Shown in pieces: positions 7,099 to 21,673 of a DNA stretch of 23,891 bases. The number at the start of each line of letters is the position of its first letter. Position 1 is the first letter of the stretch. Below the pieces are notes generated by a model. That model worked only from the letters and a program-made list of their open reading frames with translations, was not told the DNA's origin and searched no databases. Position numbers and translations under genes: made by a program. Origin of the DNA: a virus (taxonomy: Duplodnaviria; Heunggongvirae; Uroviricota; Caudoviricetes); IMG/VR virus record IMGVR_UViG_3300025896_000021; one strand, written 5' to 3'.

Positions 7099-7131
7099 TT
7101 GATAGTCCTGTTCTTTACTGTTTAAGATTCT

Positions 7132-7160
7132 ATTATATCACCGAAACCATTTAATGTCAA
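7132..7160 (-). promoter_or_regulatory. sigma70 promoter TTGACA-17-TATAAT (cassette copy)
   Basis: Perfect consensus, TG extension, followed by leader AGAATCTTAAACAGTAAAGAACAGGA. Confidence 0.9.
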
Positions 7161-7163
7161 CCT

Positions 7164-7385
7164 TTAAAATGCTTCACACATGTTAGGGAAGACACCGGTT
7201 TCTTCAAGAATATCAAGGGCACGAGTTCCGCCTGCGTATGCTTCGTCTTCTGTAGCAAAAACCGCAGCACTTTCAACCTCAGAGCAGACATATTCTTGTC
7301 CGGGAATACCCTTGTAACTTACTAGGGTAATACTCCACTTATTGTTGAATTTGCTTTGAGCCACTTGTCCGAGTTCTGTACGCAT
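7164..7385 (-). CDS. Hypothetical protein
   Basis: AGGA RBS in the cassette leader. Confidence 0.75.
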   Translation of the reverse strand: MRTELGQVAQSKFNNKWSITLVSYKGIPGQEYVCSEVESAAVFATEDEAYAGGTRALDILEETGVFPNMCEAF

Positions 7386-7418
7386 TTCAATGTCCTGTTC
7401 TTTACTGTCTATGTATGT

Positions 7419-7447
7419 ATTATAGCAGAATATCCATTTAATGTCAA
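7419..7447 (-). promoter_or_regulatory. sigma70 promoter TTGACA-17-TATAAT (cassette copy)
   Basis: Perfect consensus, TG extension. Confidence 0.9.
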
Positions 7448-7449
7448 AT

Positions 7450-7587
7450 TTAGGCTAGAACGGTAAGCACTGCGAAGGTGTTGAAAATGACTCCGATTCC
7501 GCTTATCCACCATGCAAGACTCCAAGTTCTGTCTATAGCTACAAAGTAGGCACAGGCTATGAGGCACAATAAATTGAGGATAAGCAT
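7450..7587 (-). CDS. Small two-TM membrane protein, 45 aa (MLILNLLCLIACAYFVAIDRTWSLAWWISGIGVIFNTFAVLTVLA)
   Basis: Manual translation; fills the gap exactly; AAGG upstream; below the track cut-off. Confidence 0.6.
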   Translation of the reverse strand: MLILNLLCLIACAYFVAIDRTWSLAWWISGIGVIFNTFAVLTVLA

Positions 7588-7594
7588 AGGAACC

Positions 7595-7759
7595 TTAAGA
7601 GTTGACAGTTTTGAATGGACTCAGTTCTTCATCCGAAGACTCGGAAACTTCGTACACCCATTTGATGGGCACTTGTAGATATTGAGCGATTTTGACAGGT
7701 GAATCGCCCTGTTCCAGCATCAGTTCAATATCGTAGTAGAGTTCAGACATTCGGCTCAT
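7595..7759 (-). CDS. Small acidic hypothetical protein, 54 aa (MSRMSELYYDIELMLEQG...EELSPFKTVNS)
   Basis: Manual translation; ATGA overlap with the upstream gene; below the track cut-off. Confidence 0.7.
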   Translation of the reverse strand: MSRMSELYYDIELMLEQGDSPVKIAQYLQVPIKWVYEVSESSDEELSPFKTVNS

Positions 7760-7971
7760 TTTGATTTGCTCACGGTAGATTTAAACAAGAAACCACTCAG
7801 TACGGTCAAGCCCCATGCTTGCAACCAAGTCACTTCGGCCACTCCTGCGATGGCGCCGACCAAGCAACCGTTCCACAACATGTACACCGGCCAACTCAGC
7901 AAGAAACTGAGAAACAGAATGCCCATGATACCAAGAACAACTGCACCAACGACAACGACAACTTTTTCCAT
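7756..7971 (-). CDS. Small membrane protein
   Basis: Two long hydrophobic segments; AGGA RBS. Confidence 0.8.
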   Translation of the reverse strand: MEKVVVVVGAVVLGIMGILFLSFLLSWPVYMLWNGCLVGAIAGVAEVTWLQAWGLTVLSGFLFKSTVSKSK

Positions 7972-7993
7972 GATTTTTCCTAGAGTTTAAAAA

Positions 7994-8266
7994 TTAAGCA
8001 GCAGACAACATGTTTGCAGGGACACGCCAGTTGGTCATACCAGACTTGACGATAATGAATTTACGATTCACCTTTTCAACTGAACCAATCACAGTCTGAC
8101 CGGAGCGTGAGCTAGTGAATTTTACTTGTGAGCCCTTGACTAGGGTGAATTTGTTTTTCGTTGCGATTTGACCACGAGCAAATTTGATTGCATCATTGAT
8201 TGAATTCAGGTCTTCGTTAGAGAAAGTGCCTGCGATGATAGAACGATTGATTTCTTGCAAAGTCAT
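7994..8266 (-). CDS. Hypothetical protein with SH3/KOW-like beta-barrel C-terminus
   Basis: KGSQVKFTSSRSGQTVIGSVEKVNRKFIIVK...WRVP pattern; AAGGA RBS. Confidence 0.8.
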   Translation of the reverse strand: MTLQEINRSIIAGTFSNEDLNSINDAIKFARGQIATKNKFTLVKGSQVKFTSSRSGQTVIGSVEKVNRKFIIVKSGMTNWRVPANMLSAA

Positions 8267-8298
8267 TTTGATTCCTTGTTTCGACTGTTTAAGATTCT

Positions 8299-8327
8299 AT
8301 TATATACCCAAAGTGATTTATTGTCAA
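8299..8327 (-). promoter_or_regulatory. sigma70 promoter TTGACA-17-TATAAT (cassette copy)
   Basis: Perfect consensus; leader AGAATCTTAAACAGT. Confidence 0.9.
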
Positions 8328-8611
8328 CCTTTTTTAACAGGTTTCACCCCATCAAAAGTCCATTCATTTGCTATCTCCTCATAGAAGTCGTTGCAATCAC
8401 CTTCAGTGCCATCATCCGCTAGATAGTAGTAGGCAGACTCTGTATTGCCTGCGCGGTCAATCTCGTCCTCATCGTAGCCGCACTGGTCATAACCTTCAGG
8501 GTCATAGATAAACCAAGCAACCGGTTGATTGTCGTAGTCGCTATACTTTTTGAACCACTTCTTGTCCTTGATGTATGCTGCACTGATTGTTGGACTGTGT
8601 TTTTCACGCAT
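8324..8611 (-). CDS. Acidic hypothetical protein
   Basis: AGGA RBS in the cassette leader; the TGA stop lies inside the next -35 box. Confidence 0.75.
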   Translation of the reverse strand: MREKHSPTISAAYIKDKKWFKKYSDYDNQPVAWFIYDPEGYDQCGYDEDEIDRAGNTESAYYYLADDGTEGDCNDFYEEIANEWTFDGVKPVKKG

Positions 8612-8643
8612 TTTAGTTCCTGTTCTTTACTGTCTAAGATTCT

Positions 8644-8672
8644 ATTATAGCACCGAAACCATTTACCGTCAA
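8644..8672 (-). promoter_or_regulatory. sigma70 promoter TTGACG-17-TATAAT (cassette copy)
   Basis: Near consensus, TG extension, leader AGAATCTTAGACAGTAAAGAACAGGA. Confidence 0.85.
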
Positions 8673-8677
8673 CCTTT

Positions 8678-8926
8678 TTATAGGTTCTTCAATAGGTGCA
8701 TTGTTAGGTCAGGGCCGCCGATCAGTACGCATTGACACGTGTACTTTAGGTAACCAGTATCATCACGGTATTTTGATAGCATATCAACGACACGAACTTG
8801 CTTGGGTGTGATTTTGATAACCTTACCCACATAAAGGCTATTGTGATGGGTGTATGCGACTGCATCACCCTCTGCCACAGTACGACCCAGAAGGTCTCGG
8901 TGATCTTCTGGAATAGTCTTACTCAT
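8678..8926 (-). CDS. Hypothetical protein, SH3/KOW-like
   Basis: DLLGRTVAEGDAVAY...VGKVIKITPKQVRV; TAATG overlap with the upstream gene. Confidence 0.8.
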   Translation of the reverse strand: MSKTIPEDHRDLLGRTVAEGDAVAYTHHNSLYVGKVIKITPKQVRVVDMLSKYRDDTGYLKYTCQCVLIGGPDLTMHLLKNL

Positions 8927-9168
8927 TATTTGGAAGTAATTTTGTTGATATTTGCAGAGATTTCGTCAATTTTTTTATCATGTTCCAACTTAGAAAGGAT
9001 TAATCCATACACGGTGTACAATAGTACACTCATTATACCGACTGAAAATGCAGTTTGAATTGTCTCCACAGAGACATTGTGTGCAATGTAATGTACTAGG
9101 CCTGCTGCGGCGACTGTACCAGCCATGAATCCAGCCAGAATGAGTAGAGCTTTGAGTTTAAGAGACAT
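8926..9168 (-). CDS. Small membrane protein (start re-assigned to MSLKLKAL at 9168)
   Basis: AAGGA RBS before ATG 9168; two hydrophobic helices. Confidence 0.75.
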   Translation of the reverse strand: MSLKLKALLILAGFMAGTVAAAGLVHYIAHNVSVETIQTAFSVGIMSVLLYTVYGLILSKLEHDKKIDEISANINKITSK

Positions 9169-9301
9169 TTTGAATTTCCTTTTGTGTGAGAATTGTGTTT
9201 GTGACGATAACACCACCGTATGCTTGCTGATACGTTTCAGCTACGGCTTTGACGAAAAATGTGAGAACTTTACCATTTGATGTAATCAGCGTGAAGTTCA
9301 T
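9158..9301 (-). CDS. Small hypothetical protein, 47 aa (MNFTLITSNGKVLTFFVKAVAETYQQAYGG...)
   Basis: Manual translation; AAGGA/TGGA RBS; directly downstream of promoter 9331-9359. Confidence 0.75.
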   Translation of the reverse strand: MNFTLITSNGKVLTFFVKAVAETYQQAYGGVIVTNTILTQKEIQNVS

Positions 9302-9330
9302 TTCCAGTTCCTTATCGTTTCAATACATGT

Positions 9331-9359
9331 ATTGTATCACGGAAACCATTTAATGTCAA
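9331..9359 (-). promoter_or_regulatory. sigma70 promoter TTGACA-17-TACAAT
   Basis: Spacer TTAAATGGTTTCCGTGA differs by 1 nt from the 7132-7160 copy. Confidence 0.85.
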
Positions 9360-9363
9360 CCTT

Positions 9364-9516
9364 TTAGGTCTCAGGGCGATTGCAGTGCTTATTCTTACGA
9401 CGGTACTGCACTTTGGATTGGACAACCTTAGGTTTGAACGGGGTGTTCTCGCAGAAAAGCACCCTATGTGCCCGATGTTTGGGCTGTTCAACAGTGAAAG
9501 ATATTACCTTTTTCAT
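9364..9516 (-). CDS. ArfA-like small basic protein, 50 aa (putative alternative ribosome-rescue factor)
   Basis: MKKVISFTVEQPKHRAHRVLFCENTPFKPKVVQSKVQYRRKNKHCNRPET; PF[KR]x[KR]V...YxRKxKH resembles E. coli ArfA. It sits exactly between two promoters. Confidence 0.6.
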   Translation of the reverse strand: MKKVISFTVEQPKHRAHRVLFCENTPFKPKVVQSKVQYRRKNKHCNRPET

Positions 9517-9523
9517 AACTCAT

Positions 9524-9552
9524 AGTATAACACAATGAGTATTTATTGTCAA
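9524..9552 (-). promoter_or_regulatory. sigma70 promoter TTGACA-17-TATACT, extended -10
   Basis: ATG 9516 follows 7 nt after the -10, so the transcript would be leaderless. Confidence 0.8.
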
Positions 9553-9785
9553 CCTTGGCGACCAGTGGTGTAGTGTTTACCTTTTGGACCTTTGCTGATA
9601 AAAGTTCTTCCATACAAATCTCCCTGGTACTCGTCACTTTTAACATTGTACTTCAACACCAATTTGATGCTCCGATCAAGGCTGATGCTGAGTAGCACAT
9701 TAGGTTTAAAGTCAAGTACCTCAGCAGTTACAGTTTGGTTGTTGTCAACACATTTGACTGACGTAGTTTCATCATACCGGATCAT
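9549..9785 (-). CDS. Hypothetical phage protein
   Basis: AGGAG RBS; the stop lies inside the next -35 box. Confidence 0.8.
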   Translation of the reverse strand: MIRYDETTSVKCVDNNQTVTAEVLDFKPNVLLSISLDRSIKLVLKYNVKSDEYQGDLYGRTFISKGPKGKHYTTGRQG

Positions 9786-10104
9786 TACTTTCTCCTAATG
9801 AGAATTCAATGCGTTTGATATTTTTGATAGTGAATGCGCGCCACTCATTTTTTTCTAAGTCAAAGACACGCAATGCCTTTGTACTATCAGATTGTTTGCG
9901 GGGCTTTGCACCTTCTTTCAATTCAACTACAGGTAGCTTGCTTGCTTCCAATGTGCATTTCATTACTCGCTCCGTGCCATCAACTTTAGTGAAAGTAATA
10001 GTTGCTTCACCGATTGCTAGCATTCCCTTAAGCCACTCGTGCAGTTTAGGTTCCATCTCATCAGTAATCGCAACATCTGTATTAACCCAGTTACCAGTTT
10101 CCAT
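9772..10104 (-). CDS. Sm-like/SH3 beta-barrel phage protein (WYL_2/DUF2693-like)
   Basis: ITFTKVDGTERVMKCTL...VFDLEKNEWRAF motif of the T4-like WYL_2 family. Confidence 0.8.
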   Translation of the reverse strand: METGNWVNTDVAITDEMEPKLHEWLKGMLAIGEATITFTKVDGTERVMKCTLEASKLPVVELKEGAKPRKQSDSTKALRVFDLEKNEWRAFTIKNIKRIEFSLGESNDPV

Positions 10105-10427
10105 TATTTTGATACTCCTAAAATTGTTTTTGCTCGGGCGACAAGTTCCTCATCACTGTCAGTGAATCGGTAACCTTCTTCGATAAGTCGCAATGTGTAG
10201 AATTTGTTAAAGAACAACCCGAACATCAATGCAGTAAGCATCCACAGTGGTAATGTGAACATGTGAAAGATTAGACAAATCAATGACATTACGAGATTAC
10301 CACGATAAAGCGGTACAATCCATCCTAGACTAAAGATGCCTAGAAAGAAATAGCTATAGCTAAAACCAATGTATCCGTCTTTGACGATACCAGTTTTAGT
10401 ATGGGTCATTTGAATTGCTTGTGCCAT
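10104..10427 (-). CDS. Membrane protein (GFSxxxFFxG...PLxRG family)
   Basis: Hydrophobic helices; motif GYIGFSYSYFFLG...VPLYRG, FNKFYTLRLIEEGY. Confidence 0.8.
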   Translation of the reverse strand: MAQAIQMTHTKTGIVKDGYIGFSYSYFFLGIFSLGWIVPLYRGNLVMSLICLIFHMFTLPLWMLTALMFGLFFNKFYTLRLIEEGYRFTDSDEELVARAKTILGVSK

Positions 10428-10898
10428 TTATTGCCCTTGTTCTTTCCAAGTTGTAAAGAAGTTTTTGATCTTAGTTTCTTCATCCCAAGAAGTAGTGTAG
10501 TCATTATCTTTGTCACACAAGGTCAGTGCCTCTGCCTTAGTAACAACACGATGCGACACAATTTGTTCACCTAAATGCTCTGAACTGAATGTCTTGGCTT
10601 CTTCCATCGTTACGGTATCCAATGCCCATGTAGATTTATCTTTACCGAAATCATCAACACCAATAGGAACTTCGACCATATAGCGGTCGCGGAACGTACT
10701 AACGCATTCAACGAGAACCCATTGAGTTTCTACCTTCTTAGACAGAGTAAACGAACCATCATCATTGGGTTCCCAGTTGAGAGTATCATCAATTTCCCAG
10801 CCCAGCTGATCACACAGACCTTCGGGGAAGGGAAGAATTAGATCACCTGTCTCAGGATCTTCCTCAACGATAACTGTAAAAGTTTTATTTTCATTCAT
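10428..10898 (-). CDS. Protein with N-terminal AbrB/SpoVT-like domain
   Basis: GDLILPFPEGLCDQLGWEIDDTLNWEPNDDGSFTLSK parallels 1658..1852. Confidence 0.75.
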   Translation of the reverse strand: MNENKTFTVIVEEDPETGDLILPFPEGLCDQLGWEIDDTLNWEPNDDGSFTLSKKVETQWVLVECVSTFRDRYMVEVPIGVDDFGKDKSTWALDTVTMEEAKTFSSEHLGEQIVSHRVVTKAEALTLCDKDNDYTTSWDEETKIKNFFTTWKEQGQ

Positions 10899-10899
10899 A

Positions 10900-11190
10900 T
10901 TAATTTACCAACATTCTAATTAAACCAATGCTGTCAATAGTGACAAGCAACAAATAATTTGCAATCATACCAAACGATTTACGAGTATAAGCAGCCCAAC
11001 CGTACATAGCGCAGCCACAAATCCATATAGGATAAAGATAGATAAGAGGCGGATTGGGTACAGTGAGCGCCATTGTGATCGAACACGCGATTGAAATAGC
11101 CCAAGCCATAATTTCAACGACAAAACGAACAGGGTAAGTTTTATAGTCATCTTTGATCCAAGTAAAAATACTAGCTACCGCATCATTCAT
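10900..11190 (-). CDS. Three-TM membrane protein (start re-assigned to ATG 11190)
   Basis: Three hydrophobic segments; ATGAATGA overlap with the upstream stop. Confidence 0.8.
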   Translation of the reverse strand: MNDAVASIFTWIKDDYKTYPVRFVVEIMAWAISIACSITMALTVPNPPLIYLYPIWICGCAMYGWAAYTRKSFGMIANYLLLVTIDSIGLIRMLVN

Positions 11191-11680
11191 GTTTATCAAT
11201 CACTGCTTGTAAAATTTCAACCACTAACTCATTGAGTGTGATATCTTTCTCGTGCGCAAGTTGCATCATAGTAAACAATTCATCTTTGGATAAATTGATC
11301 GGCACACTAACACGTTTGTCAAAGTCTTCACCTTTGAAAATAGCACTTGCTTTTTCTAGGAAGTCTTCTTCTGTCTCCAAGTCAATCCACTTAACATCAT
11401 CCCATGCTTGGTCTGCATCTATTGTACGGTACGATGCTTCCTCATACATAACATTCTTAAACAGAGGATTCAACCAACGATAAGGCTTTTGTTCTGAATC
11501 TTTGATTTCAACATGAATTTCGTAGACTACTTGATCTGTCGTATCAAATACGCATGACCCAGTTGCATAAGCACTTTCATAATCTAGAAAGCGGGCGTTA
11601 GGACCGTAACACTTCCAGCCATATTCGCTGCCGCCATTGATACGATGTTCAAGACTTTCGTTTACGTCTTTTAGTTGCAT
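11183..11680 (-). CDS. Hypothetical protein with C-terminal ribbon-helix-helix-like segment
   Basis: AAAGGA RBS; RVSVPINL-SKDELFTMMQLAHEK-DITLNELVVEIL fits the RHH strand-helix-helix pattern. Confidence 0.75.
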   Translation of the reverse strand: MQLKDVNESLEHRINGGSEYGWKCYGPNARFLDYESAYATGSCVFDTTDQVVYEIHVEIKDSEQKPYRWLNPLFKNVMYEEASYRTIDADQAWDDVKWIDLETEEDFLEKASAIFKGEDFDKRVSVPINLSKDELFTMMQLAHEKDITLNELVVEILQAVIDKHE

Positions 11681-11882
11681 TTTGTTTTCCTTTAAGGGTT
11701 TGTAAGTCTGCTAATTTGATAATTTCATTATAGATGAATTCCATTACACTGTAAAGTATTTTGGCATCACGCTCTGTCATCCCTGCTTCCCAAGAAGGGT
11801 CAGTAGGTTGTTTTCGCAATCCAAAATCATGCCTGTACTCTAGGCACATCATGTGGATTACTTCTTCTTTAGTCATTGTCAT
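11649..11882 (-). CDS. Hypothetical protein
   Basis: Packed into the operon with overlaps on both sides. Confidence 0.65.
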   Translation of the reverse strand: MTMTKEEVIHMMCLEYRHDFGLRKQPTDPSWEAGMTERDAKILYSVMEFIYNEIIKLADLQTLKGKQNATKRRKRKS

Positions 11883-12147
11883 GTTTCACCCAAGTATTTG
11901 TTCCACTGTTCCAGTGTCGGTTGTCATAAATTTGTGCACCGATTGTGTATCCCAAAAACCCCATCTCTATGCAGAGTCCTCCGTGGTCTCTACGGAAAGT
12001 CATCTCAAAGCTAAAACTAATTAACACACCACATCGGTAACATTCAATTTCCCAAGACTTGTTTTTAGTTAGTTGGCCGGCTTTAACAAACACAGTTTTG
12101 AATGTGTTACTCCATGGATTTTGAATTGTGAGGTTAAGATGGATCAT
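11869..12147 (-). CDS. Hypothetical phage protein (YDNRHW motif; start re-assigned to ATG 12147)
   Basis: The track start at 12300 overlaps 12215..12433; ATG 12147 follows promoter 12166-12195. Confidence 0.7.
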   Translation of the reverse strand: MIHLNLTIQNPWSNTFKTVFVKAGQLTKNKSWEIECYRCGVLISFSFEMTFRRDHGGLCIEMGFLGYTIGAQIYDNRHWNSGTNTWVKHDND

Positions 12148-12165
12148 ATATATTTCTCTAGCGTC

Positions 12166-12195
12166 ATTATAACACTCAATACAATAATGAAGCAA
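12166..12195 (-). promoter_or_regulatory. sigma70 promoter TTGCTT-18-TATAAT, extended -10
   Basis: TGtTATAAT with a weaker -35, in the gap between genes. Confidence 0.55.
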
Positions 12196-12214
12196 GTACT
12201 TTCGGGCAGATAAA

Positions 12215-12433
12215 TCATCGTTTGGTCTGTCCGATCCGACTAGCCTTATTCCAGTCGTATGCAACCCCATCTGGACATTTGCCGTCTTTGATAGTATCAA
12301 CTCCGAACATACCTACGATTTCAAAGTCTGGACCGGTGATGGTCACAAACTCGTTCATTACTTTAGCGGTGTGCATTGCTTCATCCAATGTCATTGCATC
12401 AAATGAAACAGTCTTACCTTTTACTTTAAACAT
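12215..12433 (-). CDS. Hypothetical phage protein
   Basis: Packed operon; start follows the stop of the phosphatase gene. Confidence 0.75.
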   Translation of the reverse strand: MFKVKGKTVSFDAMTLDEAMHTAKVMNEFVTITGPDFEIVGMFGVDTIKDGKCPDGVAYDWNKASRIGQTKR

Positions 12434-12897
12434 TAAAAATCATTCTTAAAAGTTCGCCAATCATCTAAGTTTGGCTTTTCGTTTTCATCATATGTCCAAC
12501 CCAATGCCTTCATCATACGATGCTTGACTAACAAGTTAGGGCTACGAAATCTTCCAGTGTCTTCAAATCCCATCATTACACCGACTTCGCAAACTGCACC
12601 ACTACGGCAAATGCCCATAGTACAGTGAACAACCACGTTCATGCGATTGTCTTTTGCATGTTGCAGCAATCGAACCAACTCGTTAGCTTGTTCTTGGCTG
12701 CAACGCATTTCTTCTTCCAATGCATAGTCATGCAATTCAATGTCAAGGAACTCAAAGTTATGACGTTCCTTGAACACGTGCTTTGCTTCTGGCTTCCAAC
12801 CTGCAGGATCTGTAATGCTAATCAGCATAGAGTTCTCACCTGCTTCATGATGGAAGCGAGTTGGGATATCACTAGCAGCTACATTCTCAATCCACAT
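12433..12897 (-). CDS. CX5R (PTP/dual-specificity-type) phosphatase-like protein (start re-assigned to MWIENV at 12897)
   Basis: VVVHCTMGICRSGAV = HCxxGxxRS P-loop; LISITDP and FLDIE motifs; GAGG RBS. Confidence 0.8.
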   Translation of the reverse strand: MWIENVAASDIPTRFHHEAGENSMLISITDPAGWKPEAKHVFKERHNFEFLDIELHDYALEEEMRCSQEQANELVRLLQHAKDNRMNVVVHCTMGICRSGAVCEVGVMMGFEDTGRFRSPNLLVKHRMMKALGWTYDENEKPNLDDWRTFKNDF

Positions 12898-13351
12898 ATC
12901 GTACCTCAATAAATCCTTCATCCTTAGTTGGTTCTTGCCAACCTGCAATCATACTATCAACAACATTTTTCGGAATGTGTTTACCAAAGCGACCACTCAA
13001 TCGCACATCTAACTCGTCACGTACGGGTGTGCGGAACACCACAGCAACATGCTCATAATCACGCAACATATTAAACTTCTTTTTACGGCTATTAACTGTA
13101 GTAGAAGTTTGGTCCCATATGATATCTCGGCCCAGGTCCCGAGCATTCTCAACTTGAATAGCCATTAGCTTTACGGCTTGTGGCATATAGTCTTTGAACA
13201 CTTCGTTATAGGTTAGTCCAAGTCGTTCGGCTTCCATGTCAACCCACATGTCGGTAGATACAATAGTACAATCACTAGCCCAGGCTTGGTTCTTGATCCA
13301 AGTACTTTTACCTGCTGCGGGCACTCCGACTAATTGATAACATTTTGCCAT
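12887..13351 (-). CDS. P-loop polynucleotide-kinase-like protein (AAA_33); alternative GTG start at 13360
   Basis: Walker A GVPAAGKST, IVSTD, IIWDQTS, RxxR lid LDVRLSGR...HIPKNVVDSM. Confidence 0.8.
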   Translation of the reverse strand: MAKCYQLVGVPAAGKSTWIKNQAWASDCTIVSTDMWVDMEAERLGLTYNEVFKDYMPQAVKLMAIQVENARDLGRDIIWDQTSTTVNSRKKKFNMLRDYEHVAVVFRTPVRDELDVRLSGRFGKHIPKNVVDSMIAGWQEPTKDEGFIEVRYVD

Positions 13352-13356
13352 TTTCT

Positions 13357-13752
13357 TCACCGTGTACTGTTTGCTAATTCTTTGTAACCATTTGTTGTAG
13401 GATGAACTTTGTCTTTTGAAAGTTGAGGAATGAACAAAATCTTATCCTCAAACTTGCCAGCAACAATTTTCACTGCCTCTTGTGCGTTTGCATTTATTGC
13501 AGGGACGATCCAATATACTCTTTTTGCATCAACCACTTCTCTAAGTACAAACAACTCTGCAAGAGTTTTCATGTTTTTGGAATCATTTGACCCCAAACTG
13601 ATAATTACTGTTTTGGCTGCAAGATCCTTTGTGATATTTCTATCAACATAGTTGCGACTATTAATTCCCACCTTAGCATGAACTTCACACTCAGGGCGAT
13701 ACTGTGCTACGCCAACTGCAATACTATCACCTAACAGTAAACACTCAATCAT
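13357..13752 (-). CDS. SGNH/GDSL hydrolase (start re-assigned to MIECLLLGDS at 13752)
   Basis: Block I GDS, block III ISLGSND, block V DKVHP. Confidence 0.85.
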   Translation of the reverse strand: MIECLLLGDSIAVGVAQYRPECEVHAKVGINSRNYVDRNITKDLAAKTVIISLGSNDSKNMKTLAELFVLREVVDAKRVYWIVPAINANAQEAVKIVAGKFEDKILFIPQLSKDKVHPTTNGYKELANSTR

Positions 13753-14032
13753 TAGATTCGTCTTCCTCTTCGGGAATTGCTGCTTCAAGCTGCCGGATCA
13801 GAGATCGGACTGCACTTGTACTCATTGTCAGTGTAGATGCGGTGTAGCCATCGCCGGTCATACGCAGTTGAATATAGCCGGCAGGGTTACGTCCGATTGT
13901 GTACACTGCATCATCCTTCATCGGGTCGCGAGGAGCAACTACCTTAGGTATAACTGGAATTGCAGTTGGTTCCTCGTTAATAGCTGCATCAACCGTGTTG
14001 GCAATTTGCCGTTTACGCCATCCAAAAATCAT
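13745..14032 (-). CDS. Hypothetical protein (start re-assigned to ATG 14032)
   Basis: AAGGAG RBS before 14032. Confidence 0.7.
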   Translation of the reverse strand: MIFGWRKRQIANTVDAAINEEPTAIPVIPKVVAPRDPMKDDAVYTIGRNPAGYIQLRMTGDGYTASTLTMSTSAVRSLIRQLEAAIPEEEDESND

Positions 14033-14042
14033 ACTAACTCCT

Positions 14043-14228
14043 TTATTGAATGGTAGCAGTTTGATAACCACTACCACCCGTTTTAATCATAGCAACATGC
14101 GTTACCAACTTTAGAAACTCATCCATTTCCTCTGAACTTGCTGCCGCATGGGGTAGTTCCCCTTGCATCACTTTCCACAAACGTTCAACGTCTGTATCAG
14201 AAAGCCAAGTATCAAATTCATCTGTCAT
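14043..14228 (-). CDS. Hypothetical protein
   Basis: AAGGA RBS, directly after a promoter. Confidence 0.75.
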   Translation of the reverse strand: MTDEFDTWLSDTDVERLWKVMQGELPHAAASSEEMDEFLKLVTHVAMIKTGGSGYQTATIQ

Positions 14229-14246
14229 TTATGTTCCTTAAATTGT

Positions 14247-14275
14247 ATTATAGCATGGTATCCATTACTTGTCAA
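14247..14275 (-). promoter_or_regulatory. sigma70 promoter TTGACA-17-TATAAT, extended -10
   Basis: Perfect consensus. Confidence 0.85.
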
Positions 14276-14276
14276 C

Positions 14277-15296
14277 TTAGTCGCCGCCCTTGAGCAAAAA
14301 CTTGTTAGAAATTGCCTTGAAGGACACTTGTTTTTCGTTACACTTGAACACAAGACCTTCACGTTCTGGTCCATTGATATCGCCCATTACAGACTTACCT
14401 TCTGCAAGTTGCAGCAATGATTCAACTGATTCAATTAGCTCAGTGTTGCGGTGAAGCACAGGGCAGTGATTCAATCCAAACACTTCTACAAACGCCTTAC
14501 GTTCAGCAGGAGTGTAGTAACGTCCTGCATCAATATCGTAAATGTCGTAAACATAAAAGTCTTGGTCACGCATCTTGTACTTGTTACCTTGAATACCGTT
14601 GCCAATCAGTTCACCTTGAACTGCAAGGTTACCACCTGCAATCTTCAACTTTTCTTCTAGGTCGTGCTTAAGAGCAGCACGCCACAGTGAATTATCTTCG
14701 TTGCGTTTGAGGTCAAGGTTGCGTGAACACACACCAACATAGTCATCAATACGATAAACAGTCATTGACGAACCATCTAACTTTTCAGTCACTTCCCAAG
14801 ATAGATTCTCAGTCTTCCACACTTCCAACTCTACTGACAAGTTTTGAATACGCTCTTGGTCAGTCTTGGGAATCACTGAAGGGAACATGCCCTTGACTTC
14901 GCCTGCAAGTGCTGCGGGGATTGGTGCTTCGTACTTGGTGATACCGAGAAATTCAGATACATCATCACCGATCGCCATATCATTTGGAAATAACTTCACA
15001 GATTCTGGAGACAGTAACAGCCCTTGCGACAATTGACCACGCAACTTCACAGTACGGAGACGTTCGCCTTCAACACCTTCAAAAGTCTTAGCATAGTGTC
15101 CGGACTTGGTCAAGAACGGTGCGATAGTAGAGGGGATGAACGAATCAATTTCGCAATATACTGCCAGATCACCAGCAGTATATTCACCCTTCTTTACTAC
15201 GCAGGTCCAGCCACCTACGATAGCGCATTCAATTGCATCAGCGCCCACAATAGGACGCAGTGCATCAATCTTTCTAATAGTTGCCATCTTACGCAT
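14277..15296 (-). CDS. RNA ligase, DRB0094/Rnl2-like family with N-terminal OB module
   Basis: Motif I VTEKLDGSS, VCSRN, VQGELIG, FYVYDIYD, motif IV REGLVFK, motif V SFKAISN; N-terminal PIVGADAIECAIVGGWTCVVKKG and LRTVKLRGQLSQGLL. Confidence 0.9.
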   Translation of the reverse strand: MRKMATIRKIDALRPIVGADAIECAIVGGWTCVVKKGEYTAGDLAVYCEIDSFIPSTIAPFLTKSGHYAKTFEGVEGERLRTVKLRGQLSQGLLLSPESVKLFPNDMAIGDDVSEFLGITKYEAPIPAALAGEVKGMFPSVIPKTDQERIQNLSVELEVWKTENLSWEVTEKLDGSSMTVYRIDDYVGVCSRNLDLKRNEDNSLWRAALKHDLEEKLKIAGGNLAVQGELIGNGIQGNKYKMRDQDFYVYDIYDIDAGRYYTPAERKAFVEVFGLNHCPVLHRNTELIESVESLLQLAEGKSVMGDINGPEREGLVFKCNEKQVSFKAISNKFLLKGGD

Positions 15297-15645
15297 TTTT
15301 AATTTCCTTTACACTAAAGAGATGTTGTGGTACCGAACCAAACATCGAATATAAAACTTTACTTGAGGTTGACGCTACTGCAAGTTTGATTCCTCGTTTG
15401 GCTACTACCATTTTGTAATAATCTCGGGCAATGCGATTTCGTTTTGCACCTCGACTATTGTTACATTGAAAACAAGCCGCAACTAAATTAGATGCAACGT
15501 CAATTCTCCTGTGCTTCGGGCTTGACCATTTATCCACAAGATGTTCAACTGTTGCCAATTGCGGAGACTTTTTCTCACGATTCATTTCACAATTGCAGTA
15601 ATGACACTTGCTACTTTGACGATTAATCAAACTATCCAAGGTCAT
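15289..15645 (-). CDS. HNH endonuclease-family protein (start re-assigned to ATG 15645)
   Basis: CHYC zinc knuckle, ATVEHL, NLVAACFQCNNSRG. Confidence 0.8.
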   Translation of the reverse strand: MTLDSLINRQSSKCHYCNCEMNREKKSPQLATVEHLVDKWSSPKHRRIDVASNLVAACFQCNNSRGAKRNRIARDYYKMVVAKRGIKLAVASTSSKVLYSMFGSVPQHLFSVKEIKNA

Positions 15646-15646
15646 T

Positions 15647-15835
15647 TTATTTCCTTCCAATTCGTTCTGCAATTTTCATTTTGACCCACTCAAGATGTTC
15701 ATTGAACATTTTAGGGCCTTGCGGGTGATTAATTACTGCCAACTCAAACTGAGTACGGACAGCGATCAATTCTGTCATGGACTTTTTAGCATACTCTGCT
15801 TCTTGGTCGTACTGATTTCCATTGTTGTAAGACAT
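15647..15835 (-). CDS. Hypothetical protein
   Basis: AGGAG RBS in the cassette leader. Confidence 0.8.
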   Translation of the reverse strand: MSYNNGNQYDQEAEYAKKSMTELIAVRTQFELAVINHPQGPKMFNEHLEWVKMKIAERIGRK

Positions 15836-15858
15836 ACAGTTCTCCTGTTTAAGATTCT

Positions 15859-15887
15859 ATTATATCACCAAAGTGATTAAATGTCAA
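15859..15887 (-). promoter_or_regulatory. sigma70 promoter TTGACA-17-TATAAT (cassette copy)
   Basis: Perfect consensus; leader AGAATCTTAAACAGGAG. Confidence 0.9.
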
Positions 15888-16105
15888 TCTTTCTCAACCA
15901 TTACGAATGCTTCCATGATGCTATCGGCCACTTCATCGTAGTCCTCTTCCTTGACACCTTCTTCAGAAGCATAGCCATAGCCACCATAGAATGTGCGAGT
16001 GTGTTGGCTAATGACCTTGATAATCCGTTCACGCATATCGTGTTCTTCACGGGTCATTGTGTTGGTCCCAAACTCTTCGCCAATTTCGCTGTACCATTTT
16101 GCCAT
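15884..16105 (-). CDS. Acidic hypothetical protein (start re-assigned to MAKWYSE at 16105)
   Basis: The track N-terminus is a translation of the promoter cassette; TGGAG RBS before 16105; stop inside the next -35. Confidence 0.7.
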   Translation of the reverse strand: MAKWYSEIGEEFGTNTMTREEHDMRERIIKVISQHTRTFYGGYGYASEEGVKEEDYDEVADSIMEAFVMVEKD

Positions 16106-16138
16106 CTTATGCTCCAGTTCTCTACTGTCTAAGATTCT

Positions 16139-16167
16139 ATTATAGCAGAATACCCATTTAATGTCAA
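16139..16167 (-). promoter_or_regulatory. sigma70 promoter TTGACA-17-TATAAT (cassette copy)
   Basis: Perfect consensus; nearly identical to 16637-16665. Confidence 0.9.
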
Positions 16168-16178
16168 CTTTTGGACAC

Positions 16179-16604
16179 TCACTCAATAGCTCTACGTAAT
16201 ACAATTTCTTGACGGGCAAACGCATCAAGTTCCCAGGGCATGTCTAAGTATTTTGTCTTTTTGCTGTAAGTCTTGCCCATCCACATTCTAGCATTCTTTG
16301 GCAAGAACTTCATTTGGCCCTTAGCAAGTTGACGCACATGTACCATTTCGTGTGAAAGAGTCAGTGCCATATTCAGTAGTGAGAATTTTGTCAAACGTTT
16401 AGCTGGCTTGATTAGTACTAGATAACAATCTGCCATTTCTACATTGAGGGTTGCACCTTCCATACCATCAAGCATGTCATCGGTCACTTTGACTAAGACT
16501 GCTTTTCTGCTATTAGTCAAACCCAACTGGTCAATGATTGAGGGCATCAATGCACTAAGAAACTTTTTGCTTTTTTGATTGCTAGCTTCAACTGCGTATT
16601 CCAT
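16179..16604 (-). CDS. Zincin-like (HExxH) metallopeptidase-family protein
   Basis: LSHEMVHVRQ plus downstream PWELDA third-ligand motif. Confidence 0.75.
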   Translation of the reverse strand: MEYAVEASNQKSKKFLSALMPSIIDQLGLTNSRKAVLVKVTDDMLDGMEGATLNVEMADCYLVLIKPAKRLTKFSLLNMALTLSHEMVHVRQLAKGQMKFLPKNARMWMGKTYSKKTKYLDMPWELDAFARQEIVLRRAIE

Positions 16605-16636
16605 TACAACTCCAGTTCTTTACTGTCTAAGATTCT

Positions 16637-16665
16637 ATTATAACAGAATACCCATTTAATGTCAA
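16637..16665 (-). promoter_or_regulatory. sigma70 promoter TTGACA-17-TATAAT (cassette copy)
   Basis: Perfect consensus; leader AGAATCTTAGACAGTAAAGAACTGGAG. Confidence 0.9.
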
Positions 16666-17629: not shown

Positions 17630-17877
17630 TTTAATCCCAATACTTTCTTTTCTGCTTCTGACAATTTAGCCAGGGCTCGTTTGCGGAGTTCACCGTTTTC
17701 ATATTCTGTCAATTCATCCAAACTGTCAAGGATGACAAATTCTTTTTCATAGACTTCATCATACTTGTTCTTTGCCTTCCATGCATCGGCAGCTTCTTTC
17801 GTTGCTACATAATACTTGTGGTTGTGACGATCACCACCGTCCCAAGTTTGAATATCCCAGCATTTAATGATTTGCAT
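17626..17877 (-). CDS. Hypothetical protein
   Basis: GGAG RBS; TAATG overlap with the upstream gene. Confidence 0.8.
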   Translation of the reverse strand: MQIIKCWDIQTWDGGDRHNHKYYVATKEAADAWKAKNKYDEVYEKEFVILDSLDELTEYENGELRKRALAKLSEAEKKVLGLK

Positions 17878-18215
17878 TATTTGACTCCAAAAGTGTTAAG
17901 TGCGGGTTGCACAGTGTTGATTAGAATTGTCTCGCGGGCGTGAGCGGGGCGCTTGCCACGTACAACTTCAAGCAAGCCGAATGTGAATACTTCGGCTCCA
18001 AACTCACGCAAGTTTTTGCTCAGGCCCCAATCTTTGTTCTCAGTCATAGCCCGTTGCATATGCTTTTGCATACGGCGATTCAGTGTACGCTTGACGTTGC
18101 CACCGAATGACACTGCGGTGATACCAACATATTGCTCACTAGTCAAAACATTGGTGATGACATAGATAGCATGATTGCGATCTGTTCTGCGCTTACGGAC
18201 GATTTTCGAGTTCAT
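17877..18215 (-). CDS. GIY-YIG nuclease-family protein
   Basis: HAIYVITN...QYVGIT, conserved R and H (RRMQKH), E (ARETILI) and terminal PALN. Confidence 0.75.
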   Translation of the reverse strand: MNSKIVRKRRTDRNHAIYVITNVLTSEQYVGITAVSFGGNVKRTLNRRMQKHMQRAMTENKDWGLSKNLREFGAEVFTFGLLEVVRGKRPAHARETILINTVQPALNTFGVK

Positions 18216-18221
18216 AAGTGT

Positions 18222-18250
18222 ATTATATACCCAAAACCATTTAATGTCAA
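18222..18250 (-). promoter_or_regulatory. sigma70 promoter TTGACA-17-TATAAT
   Basis: Perfect consensus; ATG 18215 follows 6 nt after the -10. Confidence 0.85.
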
Positions 18251-18762
18251 CCGTACGTTTCCAGTAAGTTTGTCACAAAATCGTCATCACTATCCCCGAG
18301 GTCCTTATCTGTTGTAAAAACACAACAGTCTCCGAACTTGGCTAGCTTTCGGCCAGCTGTATCATTGTCACAAACTGCTACAACCCTGCGATTCAGACAC
18401 TGCAACCAGTTCTTCAAGTCACTATTTGGGTTGTTAGATAGCACGGCCAACGCACTAAATCCACGCTCAGTGAGTCTGGCCGCATCGAACAGACCCTCAC
18501 ACACAAACACGACTGAGGGGCTTAAATCCAAGCTCTCAACGCCCCAAACAGTGTGGGTGGGCTGCTTTCTGTATGTAAAATACTTACCTTCTTTGGGGTT
18601 ATTTTGGGGCTTTTTCTCTCCGGTTGGGCGATATTGTTGGTATCCTACAAGCTGACCGCTGAGATTCCACAAGTAAAATGTGGCTACTCCCTCAACTTCG
18701 TCTAGCATAGGACGGTGAAGTTCTAAGTTTAAGTGACGACTGACCAGGTGTTCTTTAAGCAT
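18247..18762 (-). CDS. Stand-alone Toprim (DnaG primase-like) domain protein (start re-assigned to ATG 18762)
   Basis: VFVCEGLFDA and VCDND (DxD) Toprim motifs; LVGYQQYRP. The track ATG at 18768 abuts the -10 box, so it cannot be transcribed from this promoter. Confidence 0.8.
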   Translation of the reverse strand: MLKEHLVSRHLNLELHRPMLDEVEGVATFYLWNLSGQLVGYQQYRPTGEKKPQNNPKEGKYFTYRKQPTHTVWGVESLDLSPSVVFVCEGLFDAARLTERGFSALAVLSNNPNSDLKNWLQCLNRRVVAVCDNDTAGRKLAKFGDCCVFTTDKDLGDSDDDFVTNLLETYG

Positions 18763-18768
18763 ACCCAT

Positions 18769-18797
18769 ATTATACTACAATATGGATTAAATGTCAA
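18769..18797 (-). promoter_or_regulatory. sigma70 promoter TTGACA-17-TATAAT
   Basis: Perfect consensus. Confidence 0.85.
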
Positions 18798-19731: not shown

Positions 19732-20493
19732 TTATGTGCTATATATTTGAGCTAATGATTTTAGGATAATGGCTTCTCGTTGCTGCTTAGTTTTAGCTCC
19801 AAGAATAGTGATATTGTATAGTTGGTTATTTGCATTGATTAGCATAGTTATACAATAACCAGCAGCATTAGTAAACCCAGTCTTGATAGTGATTATACCT
19901 TGCTGACCAAAGTACTTTATGGTAGGACTAGTAGACAATTTAGTATCACGTTTGCCCCTTGAATAATGAGTAACTAGATTATGAGATTGTGCTGCTGTTT
20001 GCACTATATCAAATGCACTTACCGCTTTAGTGAGTTTTACAATATCATCTACTGTACTAAAGTTCATTGCACTTAGTCCAGTTGGTTCTACAAACCCAGT
20101 ATGTGACATATTCAACTCGGTTGCATGTTTGTTCATAGTTTCAACAAACTTTACTTTGCCACCGGGGAAGTTTTCAGCTAGAGTTATCGCAGCTAGGTTA
20201 TCGCTACTGATTAATGATAGCTTGACTAAATCCATTCTGGTTAGAATCATTCCTTTACTAATCTTGGTATTAGTAATTCTATTGCCAGTAACGGTCAATC
20301 GTTCATCTAACGATTGGTGCTGTGTTAGTACAGTATAAACTGTCATTAACTTGCTGATACTAGCTATACTAACTTTCTCACCTTGCTGGTTACTGCTTAC
20401 TACTTGATTGCTGGTTAAATTATAGATAATCGTGCTGGTGTCTGCCAAAGCTAGTAATGGCAACAATAACAGTATTAAAATAATTTTACGCAT
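19732..20493 (-). CDS. D-alanyl-D-alanine carboxy/endopeptidase, peptidase S11 (PBP5/PBP7-like), secreted
   Basis: Signal peptide; SxxK (ASISKLMT), SxN (SSDN) and KTG (IKTGFTNAAG); GMSHTGFVEPTGL-like segment. Confidence 0.9.
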   Translation of the reverse strand: MRKIILILLLLPLLALADTSTIIYNLTSNQVVSSNQQGEKVSIASISKLMTVYTVLTQHQSLDERLTVTGNRITNTKISKGMILTRMDLVKLSLISSDNLAAITLAENFPGGKVKFVETMNKHATELNMSHTGFVEPTGLSAMNFSTVDDIVKLTKAVSAFDIVQTAAQSHNLVTHYSRGKRDTKLSTSPTIKYFGQQGIITIKTGFTNAAGYCITMLINANNQLYNITILGAKTKQQREAIILKSLAQIYST

Positions 20494-21446: not shown

Positions 21447-21673
21447 TTTTTAACTCCAAAATGTTCTTTAATCTCTTGAATAGGATGTAAGTATTCTTCA
21501 CCTGGTCTACTCATTCTAACAGAATAAGGAGCAATAATATCAATACACTCCTGCACAATCAACTCGGCGAACTTTTCAAGGTTATAGTCATACTCGCCAG
21601 CAGTACACTTGCCAGGGCGAGGCCAGAGGCTCTGAGCACCGTCTAACCAAAGTTGTTTAATTCGTTCGTTCAT
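21443..21673 (-). CDS. MNERIK...FAELIV...HFGVKK family protein, copy 3
   Basis: Motif blocks shared; ATGA overlap with the ligase gene. Confidence 0.85.
   Translation of the reverse strand: MNERIKQLWLDGAQSLWPRPGKCTAGEYDYNLEKFAELIVQECIDIIAPYSVRMSRPGEEYLHPIQEIKEHFGVKK

What the first reader, a model, noticed from the sequence alone, without database searches (positions are those of the whole stretch)
9364..9516. Unannotated leaderless ArfA-like ribosome-rescue protein
Seen: a 50-aa basic ORF with its own promoter, where the ATG falls at the expected start site. LFCENTPFKPKVVQSKVQYRRKNKH aligns with E. coli ArfA [26 protein letters not shown]. Known: ArfA recruits RF2 to ribosomes stalled on non-stop mRNA; in E. 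coli it is made in active truncated form only when tmRNA is limiting. Inference: the phage makes a ready-truncated, stop-terminated version early, rescuing ribosomes when host RNases cut mRNA. The KGKGS segment is shortened, so function may differ.
Basis: partly seen in the sequence, partly recalled or inferred. Interest (0 to 1): 0.75.

Follow-up and report, generated by a model that had tools for sequence, protein, structure and literature searches.

The report
Phage ArfA-like ribosome-rescue peptide, leaderless
A T4-like lake phage carries a tiny, well-conserved early gene whose 50-residue basic product is a distant, already shortened relative of bacterial ArfA (the peptide that calls release factor RF2 to ribosomes stuck on broken messages), so the phage probably brings its own ribosome-rescue tool, although its activity is untested.

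Summary
ORF 9364-9516 (-) encodes a real 50-aa basic protein under purifying selection. It has 74 close homologues, 232 clusters at 50% identity, and is almost only viral. A consensus extended -10 promoter ends 7 nt before its ATG, with no Shine-Dalgarno. That arrangement recurs in all 53 distinct upstream regions of the window and its near relatives, but not in three distant members.

The ArfA reading is supported by remote homology, not by a direct Pfam hit:
- The window protein does not hit PF03889. It scores only 17.5 bits on DUF7230 (cut-off 27).
- Family profile against 14 diverse ArfAs: hhalign 84%, E 8e-6. In a separate local run the score was 24.8, against a maximum of 14 in 200 column shuffles.
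- Family profile against an ArfA-annotated protein of Pseudoalteromonas phage J2-1: 94%, E 1.6e-7. That protein passes PF03889 and has the same shortened loop.

The ArfA F25, strand, Y-x-R-K and KH positions are kept. KGKGS, the hydrophobic tail and a regulatory hairpin are absent. RF2 docking gave only weak support.

Phage ArfAs are already annotated in a few isolates, and this scan noted the same peptide on other genomes. It is a new variant of a known kind; its function is inferred.

The parts
9364..9516 (-). CDS of the 50-aa basic ArfA-like peptide (ATG 9516-9514, TAA 9366-9364). Core motifs: R15-x-H17, L20-F21, P26-F27-K-P-K-V-V, Y38-x-R40-K, K43-H44.
   Evidence: conservation; synonymous bias; homology to ArfA.
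9524..9552 (-). Sigma-70-type promoter. The -35 is TTGACA (9552-9547), the spacer is 17 nt, TG lies at 9532-9531, and the -10 is TATACT (9529-9524).
   Evidence: 11/12 match, TG present; all 53 distinct upstream regions have a -35 of at least 5/6, and 49 have TG.
9516..9523 (-). Seven nt between the -10 and the ATG, plus the A of the ATG. The predicted transcription start is at 9517 or 9516, so the mRNA is leaderless or has a 1-nt leader. No Shine-Dalgarno.
   Evidence: The spacing is 7 nt in 34 relatives, 9 nt in 13 and 6 nt in 6. The start site is predicted, not mapped.
9331..9359 (-). Next promoter (TTGACA-17-TACAAT), starting 5 nt after the stop codon. It drives the 47-aa ORF 9158-9301 through a 29-nt leader containing AAGGAA. 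No terminator lies between the two units.
   Evidence: No terminator-like site on this strand.
9772..10104 (-). Upstream neighbour: a WYL_2 / Sm-like SH3 barrel protein (110 aa). It lies upstream of the ArfA-like gene in 68 of 80 related viral loci. This is context only; no functional link is shown.
   Evidence: PF10902, E 4.9e-14; synteny.

Best explanation
The gene encodes a divergent, virus-specific homologue of the alternative ribosome-rescue factor ArfA. Host RNA polymerase would transcribe it from a strong extended -10 promoter as a leaderless mRNA. It is translated to a natural stop, so the active-length peptide is made constitutively. In E. coli, by contrast, ArfA comes from a cleaved non-stop mRNA and appears only when tmRNA is limiting. 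By analogy with ArfA, the basic C-terminal part (Y38-R-R-K-x-K43-H44 plus tail) would thread into the empty mRNA entry channel of a ribosome stalled at the 3' end of a broken message. The P26-F27-K-P-K-V-V segment would add a beta-strand to domain II/IV of host RF2 and put the Phe into its hydrophobic pocket. RF2 would then release the peptide without a stop codon and so free the ribosome. That would keep ribosomes available when mRNAs are being cut during infection. Shown: the gene is real, conserved, viral and related in sequence to ArfA; the promoter-to-ATG geometry is conserved. Inferred: the transcription start, ribosome binding, RF2 recruitment, and the benefit to the phage.
For: Homology. 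The family profile A2 against E. coli ArfA alone gives 71%, E 3.7e-5. Against 14 diverse ArfAs it gives 83.7%, E 8.1e-6, aligning ArfA 10-54. A local run scored 24.8, against 7.7+-1.7 (max 14) for 200 column shuffles, and 7.7 for the reversed alignment. 15 of 146 family representatives hit Pfam ArfA below threshold (best E 1.8e-4).

Bridge. The 51-aa protein of Pseudoalteromonas phage J2-1, annotated as ArfA, passes PF03889 (41.3 bits, cut-off 25.5, model positions 2-44 of 44). It has the same 3-residue-shorter loop and matches A2 at 93.9%, E 1.6e-7, without a gap in that loop.

Functional positions described for ArfA in PMC8012679 and PMC6299226 are the conserved ones here. F25 corresponds to F27 (F in 134 and Y in 12 of 146). 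The strand Q27-E30 corresponds to P-K-V-V. Y39-x-R41-K42 corresponds to Y38-x-R40-K41 (R40 invariant). The KH pocket motif corresponds to K43 (145/146) and H44 (128/146).

Length. At 50 aa the protein roughly matches the 46-48 ArfA residues seen on the ribosome.

Other phages also carry stop-terminated canonical ArfAs of 40-60 aa: Arash, pf16, RsoM2USA and RXM.

Complex prediction with E. coli RF2 gave weak support: score 0.32 against a best control of 0.01. The runs agreed in at least 46% of contacts and the partner's pLDDT was at least 49. That mark was reached by 58 of 80 solved complexes and 2 of 110 mismatched pairs. At scores of 0.60 or less, only 7 of the 80 solved complexes reached it, and so did both passing mismatches. 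The pass may also come from memory of solved ArfA-RF2 structures.

Leaderless geometry.
Against: The window protein gives no hit to Pfam ArfA even at E<=10. The family profile finds no PDB chain, ArfA included, at E<=10. The KGKGS motif, invariant in my ArfA sample, is absent. The N-terminal half differs: this family has its own near-invariant R15 and H17, which ArfA lacks. In the hhalign register, the residue aligned with ArfA A18 is mostly Val or Ile. A18T inactivates E. coli ArfA by steric hindrance, so RF2 activation is not assured. The host and its RF2 are unknown. Sequences this short leave room for convergence.
Confidence: 0.6

Rival explanations
1. It is an ArfA-derived ribosome binder that does not rescue. 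The peptide would plug the empty mRNA channel of non-stop ribosomes, or recruit RF2 without activating it. That would compete with tmRNA-SmpB (so phage or host peptides are not tagged) or sequester RF2 as part of host takeover.
For: It shares the channel-binding tail and the RF2-strand features of the best explanation. The position aligned to A18 is beta-branched Val or Ile in 90 of 146 members. The A18T mutant of E. coli ArfA binds and recruits RF2 but cannot activate it (PMC8012679). The loop that blocks the channel is altered.
Against: The alignment register in the helix region is uncertain, with a one-residue indel. 27 of 146 members do have Ala at that position. Blocking stalled ribosomes would also cost the phage its own translation capacity. 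No precedent is known to me.
Confidence: 0.15
2. It is a small basic nucleic-acid-binding or regulatory peptide unrelated to ribosome rescue. On this view the resemblance to ArfA comes from convergence or composition in a short Lys/Arg-rich sequence.
For: There is no direct Pfam ArfA hit and no PDB sequence hit. The Foldseek search found nothing. The only direct Pfam hit of the window protein, to DUF7230, covers just its C-terminal half (residues 27-48), and the J2-1 DUF7230 hit covers just residues 26-50. Five bacterial DUF7230 proteins are not significantly similar to this family (8.6%) or to ArfA (0.1%) by hhalign.
Against: The shuffle and reversal controls show that the match depends on residue order, not composition. 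The same ordered string of motifs occurs in both families: LF, P-F-basic-x-basic-V, K, Y-x-R-K-x-K-H. The J2-1 protein passes Pfam ArfA over the full model and also matches this family at 94%.
Confidence: 0.15
3. It is not a gene: a chance ORF lying between two promoters.
For: It is very short, it is overlapped by other small ORFs in other frames, and the exact sequence is not in the protein collection.
Against: There are 232 representative clusters and 275 viral loci. The synonymous bias is strong in this frame only. Eleven columns are invariant among the 39 close homologues aligned.
Confidence: 0.01

Closest known systems
E. coli ArfA (YhdL, b4550; Pfam PF03889), the RF2-dependent alternative ribosome-rescue factor
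   Same: Both are small basic peptides. The ordered motifs correspond: a hydrophobic pair (L19-L20 / L20-F21), F25 / F27, the RF2-pairing strand (QRVE / PKVV), Y-x-R-K, and a KH pocket motif at almost the same distance from the N terminus. The active length is about 50 aa. hhalign gives 84%, E 8e-6.
   Different: The KGKGS loop is replaced by a stretch three residues shorter. The N-terminal 18 residues are unrelated and carry the family's own conserved R15 and H17. The gene ends at a real stop codon, with no hydrophobic tail and no significant mRNA structure, so tmRNA-coupled control is absent. The mRNA is leaderless. The family is viral rather than chromosomal. It does not reach the Pfam threshold.
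ArfA-annotated 51-aa protein of Pseudoalteromonas phage J2-1 (ATN93434.1, MF988720.1)
   Same: It is phage-encoded, stop-terminated, about 50 aa, and has the same shortened loop (D-K-T-K-Y-R-R-K-K-K-H). It matches this family at 94%, E 1.6e-7.
   Different: Its N-terminal half is ArfA-like (K-D-N-K-L-K-Q-I-V), so it passes PF03889 at 41.3 bits. Its start sits in the end of the upstream gene with an ordinary ribosome-binding region, so it is not leaderless.
Canonical ArfA genes annotated or detectable in other phages: pelagiphage HTVC027P gp30 (PMC12753301), Citromicrobium phage RXM g10 (PMC8953757), Salmonella phage Arash gp99c, Pseudomonas phage pf16, Ralstonia phage RsoM2USA
   Same: They are phage-borne ArfA relatives. 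The four whose sequences I read (RXM, Arash, pf16, RsoM2USA) are stop-terminated at 40-60 aa. HTVC027P gp30 is reported as expressed during infection.
   Different: RXM, Arash, pf16 and RsoM2USA keep the KGKGS-type loop and pass PF03889. HTVC027P gp30 is reported to carry the PF03889 domain; I did not see its sequence. None has been tested biochemically as far as the searched literature shows.
Pfam DUF7230 (PF23876)
   Same: It is the best direct Pfam hit. 67 of 146 family representatives match it (best E 1.8e-8). They share the C-terminal Y-x-R-K-x-K-H type tail.
   Different: The window protein scores 17.5 bits against a cut-off of 27. Bacterial DUF7230 proteins have a different N-terminal motif (N-P-V-A-K-H-A) and are not significantly similar to this family by hhalign. 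The function is unknown.
BrfA (Bacillus) and ArfT (Francisella), independent RF-dependent rescue peptides
   Same: Same logic: a short basic peptide with its tail in the mRNA channel that recruits a release factor. BrfA also has a KH motif. [quoted passage not shown]
   Different: No sequence relationship was detected or claimed. ArfT lacks the Phe and can use RF1 or RF2.

Membership tests
ArfA (Pfam PF03889) | Scores above the Pfam gathering threshold (25.5 bits) | tested here: not met
   No hit for the window protein at E<=10. 15 of 146 family representatives hit only below threshold, best E 1.8e-4.
ArfA (Pfam PF03889) | Detectable common ancestry by profile-profile comparison | tested here: met
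   hhalign gives 83.7%, E 8.1e-6, against 14 ArfAs. A local run scored 24.8, against a maximum of 14 in 200 column shuffles. It gives 93.9% against the PF03889-positive J2-1 protein.
ArfA (Pfam PF03889) | Conserved KGKGS loop | tested here: not met
   KGKGS is invariant in the 14 ArfAs of A3. Here it is S-K-V-Q, three residues shorter; some relatives have S-K-K-G-x.
ArfA (Pfam PF03889) | Phe that enters the RF2 pocket (F25), followed by the strand that pairs with RF2 beta4-beta5 | tested here: met
   This is met in sequence only. F27 is F or Y in 146 of 146 members and is followed by K-P-K-V-V, aligned to R-Q-R-V-E. The roles of these residues are taken from PMC8012679 and PMC6299226.
ArfA (Pfam PF03889) | Basic C-terminal tail with a KH motif for the mRNA entry channel | tested here: met
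   K43 is present in 145 of 146 members, H44 in 128 of 146, and R40 is invariant.
ArfA (Pfam PF03889) | Recruits and activates RF2 on non-stop ribosomes | not testable with these tools
   The only test was a docking prediction with E. coli RF2 as a stand-in. It gave weak support: 0.32 against a best control of 0.01.
ArfA (Pfam PF03889) | Expression from a truncated non-stop mRNA (hairpin / RNase III site, hydrophobic C-terminal extension) under tmRNA control | tested here: not met
   There is an in-frame TAA after codon 50. There is no hydrophobic tail. The mRNA fold has z -0.74.
DUF7230 (Pfam PF23876) | Scores above the gathering threshold (27 bits) | tested here: not met
   17.5 bits, E 0.0045, covering residues 27-48 only. 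67 of 146 relatives match at E<1. hhalign against 5 bacterial DUF7230 proteins gives 8.6%.
Leaderless mRNA | Transcription start at or within a few nt of the start codon, with no Shine-Dalgarno | tested here: inconclusive
   The geometry is met and conserved: 6, 7 or 9 nt from the -10 to the ATG in 53 of 53 regions, with an SD-like string in 1. The 5' end is not mapped, because RNA data were unavailable.

The most novel reading that the evidence does not exclude
The viral short-loop clade may be more than a copy of host ArfA. It could be a specialised counter-defence factor. With the channel-blocking KGKGS loop trimmed and a new R-x-H N-terminal module, it might rescue ribosomes that canonical ArfA handles poorly. 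Examples are ribosomes with several mRNA nucleotides still beyond the P site after cleavage by host toxin or abortive-infection RNases. It might also use either release factor. A leaderless message could keep it being made when normal initiation is impaired.
Probability: 0.15. Interest if true: 0.8.

Novelty: new variant of a known kind. Interest (0 to 1): 0.5.

Why it matters
Ribosome rescue is essential in bacteria, and many anti-phage systems work by cutting mRNA or tRNA, which strands ribosomes. This is a large, almost purely viral family of pre-truncated ArfA-like peptides: 232 clusters at 50% identity and 275 loci in IMG/VR, some on contigs of 170-525 kb. That suggests big phages routinely bring extra rescue capacity that escapes the host's tmRNA-coupled control. 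The family also offers a natural experiment on which ArfA parts are needed, since it has no KGKGS loop and a different N terminus. It is small enough for direct tests with synthetic peptide. The conserved leaderless promoter gives a compact example of leaderless expression in T4-like phages. The idea is not new in kind, because phage ArfA genes are already annotated, and no function has been shown here.

Tried and rejected
- Nucleotide searches (megablast and blastn) of 8900-10200 and a tblastn of the peptide against 50,697 phage records found nothing.
- A profile search of PDB sequences found nothing at E<=10. A Foldseek search of the AF2 model against PDB found nothing either. The model is an extended peptide (pLDDT 84.7, pTM 0.29, one short helix at 18-21), so a fold search is not informative.
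- I looked for Pfam RF-1 and peptidyl-tRNA hydrolase domains and for tRNA or tmRNA genes in the 73.7-kb record and found none. The record is only about 21% complete.
- I tested whether DUF7230 is a bacterial short-loop ArfA branch that would tie everything together. Five bacterial DUF7230 proteins are not significantly similar to this family or to ArfA by hhalign. The J2-1 hit to DUF7230 (28.6 bits) covers only the basic tail. I dropped the idea.
- I considered whether DUF7230 is ArfT. ArfT's described KKGGSTNKK tail does not fit.
- I tested whether leaderless expression is a property of the whole family. Three distant members have ordinary leaders with a Shine-Dalgarno, or translational coupling, so it is clade-specific.
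- The protein atlas returned only unnamed clusters with a partial DUF7230 label.
- Complex prediction with E. coli RF2 gave weak support only (0.32 against 0.01). It uses a stand-in host, and the pass may come from memory of solved ArfA-RF2 structures.

Full report
**What is in the sequence**

On the minus strand, ORF 9364-9516 starts with ATG and ends with TAA. It encodes 50 residues, with 8 Lys, 5 Arg, 3 His and 3 Glu by my count. Directly upstream is a near-consensus sigma-70 promoter: TTGACA, a 17-nt spacer, TG, then TATACT (9552-9524; 11 of 12 matches). Seven nucleotides separate the -10 from the ATG, and there is no Shine-Dalgarno. Five nucleotides after the stop codon the next promoter begins (9359-9331). 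That one drives a 47-aa ORF through a 29-nt leader containing AAGGAA. No terminator-like site lies between the two units.

The window is one end of a 73.7-kb IMG/VR virus record that CheckV rates 21% complete. The record carries rIIA, nicotinamide phosphoribosyltransferase, a DNA ligase and two RNA ligases. It is therefore a T4-like large phage. The closest RNA-ligase matches come from freshwater and cyanobacterial phages.

**Is it a gene?**

Yes.
- The peptide has 74 homologues of about 50 aa in the 90%-clustered collection.
- It has 232 representative clusters at E<=1e-3 in the exhaustive search.
- 275 confirmed loci occur in IMG/VR, some on contigs of 170-525 kb.
- Only one hit occurs in 185,579 bacterial species genomes, on a 6.9-kb MAG contig.
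- Among 43 distinct relatives, 62% of differing codons are synonymous in this frame, against 11% and 4% in the other two frames.
- Across 146 representatives the near-invariant positions are R15, H17, L20, F21, P26, F27, K30, K35, Y38, R40, K43 and H44.
- Several members are only 35-40 aa and begin just before R15, so the first dozen residues are dispensable.

**Is it leaderless?**

I lined up the 60 nt upstream of the ATG in the window and in the 80 best viral loci. That gave 53 distinct sequences.
- All have a -35 with at least 5 of 6 matches, and the spacer is 17 nt in 50 of them.
- 49 have the TG of an extended -10.
- The -10 is TATACT in 28, TATAAT in 24 and TAAACT in 1.
- The distance from the -10 to the ATG is 7 nt in 34, 9 nt in 13 and 6 nt in 6.
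- Only one has an SD-like string.

So the geometry that puts +1 on or just before the ATG is conserved across relatives down to about 66% identity.

It is not a property of the whole family. Three distant members have 20-30-nt leaders with AGGAG or AGGAA, or are translationally coupled.

In this window most of the roughly 18 consensus minus-strand promoters have 18-33 nt between the -10 and the ATG, with an SD. Two other units look leaderless (see Noticed in passing).

The first 25 nt of the predicted mRNA are mostly unpaired, and the whole message has no unusual structure (z -0.74).

**Is it ArfA-like?**

Direct tests are negative or weak.
- Pfam ArfA (PF03889) does not hit the window protein even at E<=10.
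- The only Pfam hit is DUF7230, at 17.5 bits against a cut-off of 27.
- A PHROG of unknown function hits at E 0.0015.
- A profile search of PDB sequences finds nothing.

Remote-homology tests are positive. I fetched the real E. coli ArfA and diverse ArfAs from other genomes.
- The 146-member family profile against E. coli ArfA alone gives 71%, E 3.7e-5.
- Against 14 diverse ArfAs it gives 83.7%, E 8.1e-6, over ArfA residues 10-54.
- In a local control run the real score was 24.8. Two hundred column-shuffled ArfA alignments scored 7.7+-1.7 (maximum 14), and the reversed alignment scored 7.7. Basic composition therefore does not explain the match.
- 15 of 146 representatives hit Pfam ArfA below threshold, and 67 hit DUF7230.

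The best bridge is an isolate phage. A tblastn with ArfA residues 1-55 found ArfA relatives in a handful of phage records. The 51-aa protein of Pseudoalteromonas phage J2-1 is annotated as ArfA and passes PF03889 over the whole model (41.3 bits). Yet it has the same three-residue-shorter loop as this family. It matches the family profile at 93.9%, E 1.6e-7, without a gap in that loop.

**Mapping onto what is known of ArfA**

The facts below come from the review PMC8012679 and from PMC6299226.
- ArfA residues 15-24 form a short helix at the decoding centre.
- F25 enters a hydrophobic pocket of RF2 (V198/F217).
- Q27-E30 add a strand to the RF2 domain II/IV sheet.
- The basic C-terminal part sits in the empty mRNA entry channel, and a KH motif binds a pocket there.
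- Only 46-48 residues are ordered on the ribosome.
- A 40-residue truncation is inactive.

In the hhalign register these map to R-A-H-R-V-L-F, F27, P-K-V-V, Y38-x-R40-K41 and K43-H44. These are the most conserved columns of the viral family.

The family differs in several ways.
- It lacks KGKGS, which is invariant in my ArfA sample.
- It has an unrelated N terminus with its own conserved R15 and H17.
- At the position aligned to A18 it has Val in 71 members, Ile in 19 and Ala in 27. A18T inactivates E. coli ArfA sterically. The register there is uncertain, but this keeps a non-activating reading alive.

**Structure predictions**

AF2 with the family alignment gives an extended chain with one short helix at 18-21 (pLDDT 84.7, pTM 0.29). 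That is what one expects of a peptide that folds only on its target. Foldseek found nothing.

Complex prediction with E. coli RF2 as a stand-in gave weak support.
- The score was 0.32 against a best control of 0.01.
- The runs agreed in at least 46% of contacts, and the partner's pLDDT was at least 49.
- That mark was reached by 58 of 80 solved complexes and 2 of 110 mismatched pairs.
- At scores of 0.60 or less, only 7 of the 80 solved complexes reached it, and so did both passing mismatches.
- The pass may reflect memory of solved ArfA-RF2 complexes.

I treat this as a statement of likeness, not of binding.

**Regulation**

E. coli ArfA is made from an RNase III-cleaved or prematurely terminated non-stop mRNA, and it accumulates only when trans-translation is limiting. 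This gene has a normal stop codon six residues after KH, no hydrophobic tail and no significant hairpin. The other phage ArfAs whose sequences I read are also stop-terminated at 40-60 aa.

**Context**

The WYL_2 / Sm-like barrel gene lies upstream of the ArfA-like gene in 68 of 80 related loci. A 156-aa ORF lies upstream in 55 loci and a 90-aa ORF downstream in 53. These loci are close relatives, so shared ancestry is enough to explain the synteny.

The two RNA ligases and a dual-specificity-phosphatase-like protein lie 3-13 kb away. They fit an RNA-damage theme but prove nothing. No release factor, peptidyl-tRNA hydrolase, tRNA or tmRNA was found in the partial record.

**Prior knowledge and novelty**

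Phage-encoded ArfA has been reported at annotation level. Pelagiphage HTVC027P gp30 carries PF03889 and has expression data (PMC12753301). Citromicrobium phage RXM g10 is also annotated as ArfA (PMC8953757). I found no functional study, and no paper mentions DUF7230.

Earlier notes of this scan describe the same kind of peptide on other genomes, and one follow-up reached the same verdict.

- the size and viral restriction of the short-loop clade;
- the bridge through J2-1;
- the shuffle control;
- the finding that the leaderless promoter is conserved within the clade but is not family-wide.

**Verdict**

This is a new variant of a known kind. I put the probability of common ancestry with ArfA at about 0.8, and of a true RF2-dependent rescue function at about 0.6.

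Noticed in passing
window 18215-18250 (-) and 18760-18797 (-): Two more candidate leaderless units. The first is TTGACA-17-TATAAT, then 6 nt, then the ATG at 18215 of the 112-aa ORF 17877-18215. In the second, a TATAAT abuts the annotated ATG at 18768 of the Toprim-like 173-aa ORF, so the predicted +1 falls on its second ATG at 18762. About 3 of the roughly 18 consensus promoters in the window would then give leaderless mRNAs.
   Followed up: partly
window 7107-16665 (-), e.g. 8299-8327, 8644-8672, 7160, 7447, 16167, 16665: Many accessory genes are headed by a repeated promoter-plus-leader cassette: TTGACA-17-TATAAT, then AGAATCTTA(G/A)ACAGTAAAGAAC..GGA, then ATG about 32 nt after the -10. The ArfA-like gene uses the promoter but not the leader.
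   Followed up: partly
window 14277-15296 (-), 21670-22566 (-), 12433-12948 (-): These look like parts of an RNA-repair-like set: an Rnl2/PHA02142-type RNA ligase (PF09414, E 4.7e-34), a T4 Rnl1-like ligase (phrog_562, E 3.9e-49), and a dual-specificity-phosphatase-like protein just at the Pfam threshold. They may be connected with the ribosome-rescue theme.
   Followed up: no
window 9772-10104 (-): The WYL_2 / Sm-like SH3 barrel protein (PF10902, E 4.9e-14) lies upstream of the ArfA-like gene in 68 of 80 related viral loci. Its function is unknown.
   Followed up: partly
window 19732-20493 (-): A phage-encoded D-Ala-D-Ala carboxypeptidase / class A beta-lactamase-fold protein (Peptidase_S11, E 2.8e-35).
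   Followed up: no
L106 1477-1635, L107 1477-1641 (bacterial genomes G033, G245): Bacterial DUF7230 proteins were found in 6 of 300 genomes sampled from the class of the one bacterial MAG that carries a family hit (G001), against 3 of 300 for ArfA. They are ~40-60-aa basic peptides with an N-P-V-A-K-H-A motif. Two of them (L106, L107) carry a Y-x-R-x-x-K-H tail followed by a hydrophobic end. That layout recalls ArfA, but I could not show homology. They may be another unrecognised rescue-factor family.
   Followed up: partly
L098 217-441 (Salmonella phage Arash gp99c, OQ632216.1): This gene is annotated 'ribosomal protein L2', but it is a clear ArfA (PF03889, 68.9 bits). It is probably a misannotation.
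   Followed up: partly
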